DNA of 64,000 bases from assembly GCF_058153355.1 (NCBI RefSeq), contig NZ_CM177019.1. One strand, 5' to 3'. The position numbers and the translations under genes are program-made. The notes under the pieces are model-generated. The model had not been told where the DNA came from, did not search any database, and was given only the letters and a program-made list of their open reading frames with translations. The number at the start of each line of letters is the position of its first letter. Position 1 is the stretch's first letter. Below, one piece after another: positions 9,809-10,004 of the stretch.

Positions 9809-10004
9809 CAAAGTTTTAACACATAAGAGATCTATCATAATTCAGTAAAATAACAAAAAAGAGGACTTTCTATGACTTATCAGAACTCCCTTTTTATTGT
9901 TATCCATAATTGTTCAGCCGACCAATTCTATAAATCTGACATTTGACACGCCTCCTTTGCCGTTCTGATACGTTACTTTTCTTGCCGTTATCAAACCCAC
10001 AAAT

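What the first reader, a model, noticed from the sequence alone, without database searches (positions are those of the whole stretch)
9871..9945. Possible 24-codon small ORF with Shine-Dalgarno between ycgX and the icd-like repeat
AAGAGGAC precedes ATG at 9871; the ORF encodes MTYQNSLFIVIHNCSADQFYKSDI*. This is a candidate small protein in an otherwise unannotated 200-bp spacer, and it is weakly supported.
Basis: seen in the sequence. Interest (0 to 1): 0.2.

Follow-up and report, generated by a model that had tools for sequence, protein, structure and literature searches.

The report
Out-of-frame ORF in decayed ymgL locus
The 24-codon ORF is really in the sequence, but it sits out of frame inside a rare, highly diverged and inactivated copy of the known E. 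coli small-protein gene ymgL, shows no sign of selection as a protein, and is most likely an ordinary incidental ORF.

Summary
The ORF exists at 9872-9946 (+), one base to the right of the reported coordinates. It encodes the stated peptide, and AGAGGA lies 6-7 nt upstream of the ATG. The spacer is not anonymous. It is the counterpart, about 71% identical, of the ycgX-icd spacer that carries ymgL in about 5,000 of 5,426 complete E. coli genomes. YmgL is 36-41 aa and was detected in K-12 by SPA tagging.

The window carries a rare divergent haplotype (16 of 5,426 complete genomes). In it the ymgL start codon is gone and the ymgL frame has a TGA. The flagged ORF is in a different frame, and that frame stops after 3 codons in K-12.

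- Differences between the two alleles fall evenly on the three codon positions (8/6/7).
- All three polymorphisms inside the ORF change the protein: T2N, F19Y and a 1-nt frameshift.
- Three natural strains have deleted the whole segment.
- A hairpin (-12.4 kcal/mol) buries the Shine-Dalgarno sequence.
- No gene caller, Pfam, Rfam or PDB search recognises the ORF.

Weak translation from the ycgX 3' UTR cannot be excluded, because ymgL is translated there in K-12. Nothing indicates a selected gene. Interest is low.

The parts
9872..9946 (+). The flagged 24-codon ORF (MTYQNSLFIVIHNCSADQFYKSDI*), out of frame with ymgL
9860..9865 (+). Shine-Dalgarno-like AGAGGA; A9865 is T in several haplotypes, but GAGG is kept
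9850..9903 (+). Inverted repeat / RNA hairpin. Stems are 9850-9856/9897-9903, 9858-9864/9889-9895 and 9868-9871/9882-9885. It pairs the SD and leaves the AUG at the edge of the apical loop. dG -12.4 kcal/mol, z -3.3.
9873..9968 (+). Remnant of the ymgL reading frame: TGA at 9873-9875 (where K-12 has the Trp11 codon), then LIRTPFLLLSIIVQPTNSINLTFDTPPLPF*. There is no ATG. It ends at the same stop as the 41-aa YmgL variant.
9404..9808 (+). ycgX (DUF1398). The ORF lies in its presumed 3' UTR. A recombination breakpoint lies within this gene.
10001..10066 (.). icd-3'-end remnant: terminator hairpin at 10007-10029 plus about 7 degenerate terminal icd codons on the - strand. It is a direct repeat of 16317-16383.

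Best explanation
The spacer after ycgX is a rare, deeply diverged allele of the ymgL locus in which ymgL itself is dead. Its ATG has no counterpart, about 18 nt are missing, and the frame carries TAA and TGA stops. The flagged ORF is an incidental open frame, shifted relative to ymgL and overlapping that remnant. It is open only because three codons that are stops in K-12 (codons 4, 14 and 18) read CAG, TGT and CAA here.

Its 'Shine-Dalgarno' is the purine arm of a local hairpin whose other arm is the conserved CTTTTTATTG block. The ORF lies in the ycgX 3' UTR, upstream of the old icd terminator hairpin. Ribosomes may therefore occasionally initiate there, as they do on ymgL in K-12. No protein product is under selection.

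Shown by the analysis: the homology, the frame relationship, the lack of coding signature and the dispensability. Inferred: co-transcription with ycgX, and low or absent translation.
For: - The homologous spacer carries ymgL in 5,013 of 5,426 complete genomes. The window-type allele is present in 16, with no intermediates.
- Alignment A1 and the frame translations show the lost start, the in-frame TGA and the different frame.
- Pfam YmgL matches only the other frame, and below cutoff.
- There are 21 differences from K-12 across the ORF, split 8/6/7 over codon positions. dN/dS in the ymgL frame is 0.70, against 0.10 in adjacent ycgX.
- Among 19 loci (12 haplotypes) the ORF carries T2N, F19Y and a 1-nt deletion, with no synonymous change. 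Its polymorphism density is 3/75 against 45/757 in the surrounding non-coding DNA (p=0.79).
- A deletion of about 437 nt removes the ORF in EC42405, 2020CK-00188 and GCA_009898965.
- The hairpin costs 11.4 kcal/mol to open, against -5.8 for SD:anti-SD pairing. This is the worst balance among the 9 start sites compared.
- The ORF is never called by PGAP or other callers, and none of the peptide variants is among 15 billion proteins.
Against: - The SD, spacing and ATG are canonical, and GAGG is kept in all haplotypes.
- The ORF is intact in 18 of 19 loci, although diversity is very low.
- Codon-usage log-odds is 0.25 per codon, similar to ycgX. Only 4% of composition-matched stop-free shuffles reach it, but 18% of stop-free intergenic windows do.
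- Polymorphism is lower than in the immediate flanks (3/75 against 16/124, p=0.046).
- The ORF region is more conserved between alleles (72%) than neutral divergence predicts (about 51%; p=2e-4), so something at the nucleotide level is constrained.
- A sORF in the equivalent 3' UTR is translated in K-12.
Confidence: 0.62

Rival explanations
1. A genuine lineage-specific small protein. After ymgL lost its start, a new SD+ATG captured an overlapping frame, and the 24-aa peptide is made and used. This would be sORF turnover at a translated 3' UTR.
For: - Canonical SD, ATG and spacing.
- Best codon score of the 5 intergenic SD+ATG sORFs in the window.
- ORF intact in 18 of 19 loci.
- Fewer polymorphisms than the immediate flanks (p=0.046).
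- K-12 precedent for translation at this site.
Against: - No synonymous variants; all 3 variants alter the protein.
- No codon periodicity.
- Deleted in three strains.
- SD buried in a hairpin.
- No transmembrane or other recognisable motif, and no homolog anywhere.
- Polymorphism is not lower than in the wider non-coding region (p=0.79).
Confidence: 0.13
2. The constrained object is an RNA or DNA element, not a peptide. Candidates are the 9850-9903 hairpin and the conserved CTTTTTATTG...CCATAA...GATACGTTA blocks of the ycgX 3' UTR, acting for example in mRNA stability or processing, or in occlusion of sORF initiation. The ORF and the 'SD' would be by-products of that element's sequence.
For: - Hairpin z-score -3.3; 1 of 200 shuffles folds as well.
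- 0 of 36 stem nucleotides are polymorphic, while loop positions 9865 and 9876 vary.
- Conservation between alleles is frame-independent and exceeds the neutral expectation.
Against: - No Rfam match.
- The K-12 and B2 alleles do not fold significantly (z +0.5 to +0.7), and any analogous stem uses non-homologous 5' sequence.
- The stems are A/U-rich low-complexity sequence.
- The element is deleted in some strains.
- There is no covariation data.
Confidence: 0.2

Closest known systems
ymgL / YmgL (Pfam PF23691; E. coli K-12 b-numbered sORF between iraM and ycgX)
   Same: Same chromosomal position: it starts 52-64 nt after the ycgX stop, on the same strand, upstream of the icd-terminator remnant. 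The DNA is about 71% identical. The ymgL-frame remnant ends at the same TGA as the 41-aa YmgL variant.
   Different: The flagged ORF is in another frame and gives no HMM hit. The ymgL ATG is absent and the ymgL frame is interrupted by TGA. The remnant scores 13.9 bits against a cutoff of 27.
ymgK / YmgK (14-aa K-12 sORF in the same intergenic region)
   Same: It is also a SPA-tag-detected sORF of the ycgX-iraM spacer. Its counterpart in the window (about 10424-10511) has likewise lost the ATG and the stop.
   Different: It is a different segment and is not the flagged ORF.
icdC / e14-type attachment-site duplications of the icd 3' end
   Same: The sequence immediately downstream (10001-10066) is a degenerate copy of the icd terminator and last codons, as in K-12 icdC.
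   Different: The flagged ORF lies outside the repeat.
Pervasively translated or non-conserved intergenic sORFs of E. coli (VanOrsdel et al. 2018 screen)
   Same: It is a short ORF with an RBS in a 3' UTR and is restricted to E. coli. In that screen 45% of such tagged ORFs gave a band.
   Different: There is no expression data for this allele.

Membership tests
YmgL (PF23691) | Protein matches the YmgL HMM at or above the gathering score (27 bits) | tested here: not met
   The 24-aa peptide gives no hit. The alternative-frame remnant scores 13.9 bits (E=0.053). The K-12 YmgL control scores 100.7 bits.
YmgL (PF23691) | Location directly downstream of ycgX, same strand, before the icd-terminator remnant | tested here: met
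YmgL (PF23691) | Same reading frame and homologous ATG start (MEIKVQRLSLW...) | tested here: not met
   The start codon has no counterpart. There is an 18-nt gap. TGA replaces the Trp11 codon. The flagged ORF is shifted relative to the ymgL frame.
Functional bacterial small protein (generic criteria) | Reading frame conserved across diverged relatives, with a coding-type substitution pattern | tested here: not met
   The frame is closed after 3 codons in the K-12 and B2 alleles. Differences split 8/6/7 over codon positions. Variants within the allele are all protein-altering.
Functional bacterial small protein (generic criteria) | Ribosome-binding site and start codon | tested here: met
   GAGG lies 7 nt before the ATG, with an SD:anti-SD duplex of -5.8 kcal/mol. 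It is sequestered in a hairpin with an opening cost of 11.4 kcal/mol.
Functional bacterial small protein (generic criteria) | Evidence of translation (ribosome footprints, tagged product, peptides) | not testable with these tools
   No expression data exist for strains with this allele. Only K-12 YmgL and YmgK were assayed.
Known RNA family (Rfam) | Covariance-model match | tested here: not met
   There is no hit in 9800-10100 at E<=1.

The most novel reading that the evidence does not exclude
Two ancient alleles of the same ycgX 3' UTR encode different micro-proteins from overlapping frames of homologous DNA. The common allele encodes YmgL. The rare allele encodes a 24-aa peptide with a newly acquired, stronger SD+ATG. 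One strain (E500002) has a 1-nt deletion that fuses the new start to the old YmgL C-terminal frame. If the peptide is made, this would be a natural snapshot of sORF death, birth and frame-switching at a site known to be translated.
Probability: 0.15. Interest if true: 0.35.

Novelty: not a real feature. Interest (0 to 1): 0.12.

Why it matters
It matters little for biology as it stands. The practical value is for annotation. The 'empty' spacer is the ymgL locus, and in this haplotype both SPA-validated K-12 sORFs of the region (ymgL and ymgK) are disrupted. That suggests these micro-ORFs are evolutionarily transient rather than conserved genes. If the alternative-frame ORF were shown to be translated, the locus would be a small but clean example of sORF turnover between E. 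coli haplotypes.

Tried and rejected
- Two genome-contig scans with YcgX (single sequence and alignment) returned nothing, so no other Escherichia species could be compared.
- A metagenome scan with a window-type-specific 22-mer hit only an unrelated AT-rich contig.
- More distant YcgX homologs lie in other contexts. Those in lambdoid prophages sit between the lysis and terminase genes, and others sit at the yedEF locus. Their similarity stops exactly at the stop codon.
- The one syntenic relative (Citrobacter, ycgX...icd) has an unrelated 800-bp spacer with IS200/RAYT-like debris.
- Rfam, NCBIfam, PDB sequences and phage genomes gave no match.
- A leader-peptide/attenuator reading was rejected. 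The next + strand gene starts about 700 nt downstream, and the hairpin at 10007-10029 is the old icd terminator.
- A type I toxin or membrane peptide was rejected because the peptide has no hydrophobic helix.
- No structure prediction was attempted for a 24-aa peptide without homologs.

Full report
**Observation**

The window sequence and the mechanical ORF list confirm an ATG-initiated ORF of 24 codons plus TGA at 9872-9946 on the + strand. It encodes MTYQNSLFIVIHNCSADQFYKSDI. AAGAGGAC occupies 9859-9866, so the GAGG core ends 7 nt before the ATG.

On the + strand the neighbours are bluR (8452-9183), ycgX (9404-9808), the ORF, a YmgB/AriR-family gene (10645-10899) and iraM (11148-11471). The 'icd-like repeat' is real. 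Positions 10001-10066 are 83.6% identical to 16317-16383, which is the terminator and last codons of the true icd at 16369-17619 (-).

**Chance**

The spacer is 67% A+T. In dinucleotide shuffles, 20% contain a + strand ATG ORF of at least 24 codons. Only 0.2% (+ strand) or 2.3% (either strand) also have a GGAG/GAGG/AGGA motif at -16..-5. Across the whole window there are 73 fully intergenic ATG ORFs of 20-60 codons, and 5 of them have such a motif. The combination is uncommon but not remarkable for a 64-kb scan.

The codon-usage log-odds score is 0.25 per codon, similar to ycgX. It is reached by 4% of composition-matched stop-free shuffles but by 18% of stop-free 23-codon windows in the window's intergenic DNA.

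**What the spacer is**

A megablast search finds this sequence in only 16-18 of 5,426 complete E. coli genomes, at 97-99% identity. PGAP annotates nothing there in any of them.

A sensitive search shows that the same position in thousands of other E. coli is about 71% identical and annotated as ymgL. In K-12-like and B2-like strains ymgL starts 52 nt after the ycgX stop, on the same strand. It encodes MEIKVQRLSLWMINTVFLLSPINNHQTNTINLIFEM (36 aa) or a 41-aa variant. The K-12-type spacer is present at 90% identity or more in 5,013 of 5,426 genomes, and there are no intermediates between the two classes.

YmgL was detected in MG1655 by chromosomal SPA tagging (VanOrsdel et al. 2018, PMC6001520, Table 1). 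It has its own Pfam family, PF23691, and all members found are from E. coli or Shigella.

**Frame relationship**

The window was aligned with its close relatives and with the K-12 and B2 alleles (A1), and all three frames were translated. The comparison shows:
- The ymgL ATG has no counterpart in the window, and about 18 nt are missing around it.
- In the ymgL frame the window has TAA, and then TGA at 9873-9875 where K-12 has the Trp11 codon.
- After that TGA the ymgL frame is open without any ATG (LIRTPFLLLSIIVQPTNSINLTFDTPPLPF*) and ends at the same stop as the 41-aa variant.
- The flagged ORF is in a different frame. In K-12 that frame reads MDD* and has two further stops.

Pfam agrees. The flagged peptide gives no hit. 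The other-frame remnant scores 13.9 bits against YmgL profile positions 12-35, below the cutoff of 27. K-12 YmgL scores 100.7 bits. The flagged ORF is therefore not a YmgL homolog. It overlaps a dead ymgL.

**Evolutionary signal between alleles**

The window haplotype is very old or was imported. Identity to K-12 falls from 97-100% in bluR, to 95% in the 5' part of ycgX, to 84% in the 3' part of ycgX, and to 55-65% in the spacer. ycgX codons 51-134 have pS = 0.47 and dN/dS = 0.10.

Across the 75-nt ORF there are 21 differences from K-12, distributed 8/6/7 over the three positions. No frame shows third-position enrichment. In the ymgL frame dN/dS is 0.70.

The block is nevertheless 72% identical, more than the roughly 51% expected from the neighbouring synonymous divergence (p = 2e-4). 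Some frame-independent, nucleotide-level constraint therefore exists.

**Variation within the allele**

I collected 19 loci with the window-type segment, giving 12 haplotypes over 9404-10640. The ORF is intact in 18 of them. Its three variable sites are:
- ACT>AAT (T2N, L026).
- TTC>TAC (F19Y, several loci).
- Deletion of G9920 in strain E500002, which shifts the ORF into the ymgL-frame remnant and gives a 31-aa chimera.

There are no synonymous changes. Polymorphism density is 3/75. It is 16/124 in the immediate flanks (p = 0.046), 45/757 in all other non-coding DNA between 9809 and 10640 (p = 0.79), and 10/405 in ycgX.

Three strains (EC42405, 2020CK-00188 and GCA_009898965) carry a deletion of about 437 nt, roughly 9859-10295 with AA microhomology at the junction. 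It removes the SD, the ORF and the icd remnant. The ORF is therefore dispensable in nature.

None of the peptide variants is present among about 15 billion predicted proteins. No gene caller called the ORF in any fetched locus.

**Translation signals and structure**

The region 9850-9903 forms an interrupted hairpin. AUAACAA pairs with UUGUUAU, AAAGAGG pairs with CCUUUUU, and UUCU pairs with AGAA. It appears in both the minimum-free-energy and the centroid structures, with dG -12.4 kcal/mol and z = -3.3. It pairs the SD and places the AUG at the edge of the loop.

Opening positions -15..+12 costs 11.4 kcal/mol, against an SD:anti-SD duplex of -5.8. This is the least favourable balance among nine starts compared. 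For K-12 ymgL the values are 7.4 and -3.7.

None of the 36 stem nucleotides is polymorphic, while loop positions 9865 and 9876 vary. The K-12 and B2 alleles do not fold significantly. The purine tract that looks like an SD is thus also the complement of the conserved CTTTTTATTG block.

The scan found no promoter-like site between ycgX and the ORF. The first strong hairpin downstream is the old icd terminator at 10007-10029. From this I infer that the ORF lies in the ycgX 3' UTR, as ymgL does in K-12.

**Wider comparisons**

- DUF1398 paralogs in lambdoid prophages and at the yedEF locus share nothing beyond their stop codon.
- The one syntenic Citrobacter locus has an unrelated spacer.
- Rfam, NCBIfam, PDB and phage-genome searches were empty.
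- Published context describes ycgX as prophage-related and the whole region as probably horizontally acquired (PMC3509220).

**Conclusion**

The best-supported reading (confidence about 0.6) is that this is an incidental open frame in a diverged, ymgL-inactivated allele of a known sORF locus. Low-level initiation is possible, but no protein product is under selection.

There are two rival readings. One is a genuine lineage-specific micro-protein that replaced YmgL (about 0.13). The other is that the constrained object is an RNA or DNA element, such as the hairpin or the 3' UTR blocks, with the ORF as a by-product (about 0.2; this is compatible with the main reading).

Translation can only be settled by initiation profiling or epitope tagging in a strain that carries this allele.

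Noticed in passing
window 10385-10511: This is the counterpart of the K-12 sORF ymgK (MFSKLAQSSIKAMF). The ATG is replaced (ATAATG becomes ATGG-G, with a 1-nt indel) and the stop is lost, leaving a GTG ORF at 10437-10511 (MAQTSIKAMLCLQ...). Both SPA-validated K-12 sORFs of this spacer are therefore disrupted in this haplotype.
   Followed up: partly
window 10406-10567 (- strand): A strong terminator-like hairpin lies on the - strand (GCCAACCCCATGGTTGGC plus a T-run, 10433 to 10416). It sits where K-12 has the ymgK SD/ATG. Two - strand promoter-like sites lie at 10567-10532. Together they could give a transcript of about 120 nt antisense to the ymgK-like segment. There is no Rfam hit.
   Followed up: no
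window 10001-10066 and 16317-16383 (island 10067-16316): Direct repeats of the icd 3' end and terminator (83.6% identical) flank an island of about 6.3 kb. The island carries a YmgB/AriR paralog (10645-10899), a divergent iraM (11148-11471), trkG (12206-13681, -) and a 458-aa ORF with no Pfam family (14616-15992, -). This looks like a decayed e14-type integration at icd.
   Followed up: partly
window ~9500-9808 (within ycgX): A recombination breakpoint lies inside ycgX. dS against K-12 is 0.17 in codons 1-50 but 0.74-0.90 in codons 51-134 (dN/dS about 0.1), and the downstream spacer is 55-65% identical. An ancient or imported haplotype is segregating in 16 of 5,426 complete genomes (about 0.3%).
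   Followed up: partly
window ~9859-10295; L017 1655-1665, L028 1951-1961: A natural deletion of about 437 nt, with AA microhomology at the junction, removes the SD, the ORF, the icd remnant and the following 230 nt. It occurs in strains EC42405, 2020CK-00188 and GCA_009898965.
   Followed up: yes
L012 (E. coli E500002), equivalent of window 9920: A 1-nt deletion fuses the flagged ORF's start to the ymgL-frame remnant (MTYQNSLFIVIHNCSATNSINLTFDTPPLPF, 31 aa). It may be a real mutation or an assembly error. Sister strains from the same project lack it.
   Followed up: partly
window 10070-10315 (+): An unannotated 81-aa ATG ORF lies immediately after the icd remnant. It has no Pfam match, and this segment is more polymorphic than its surroundings (15/225).
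   Followed up: no
window 11511-11600 (-): There is a weak, truncated Rfam hit to the sRNA STnc100 (19.2 bits against a gathering score of 47, E=0.26), next to the bidirectional terminator at 11523-11540. It is probably chance.
   Followed up: no
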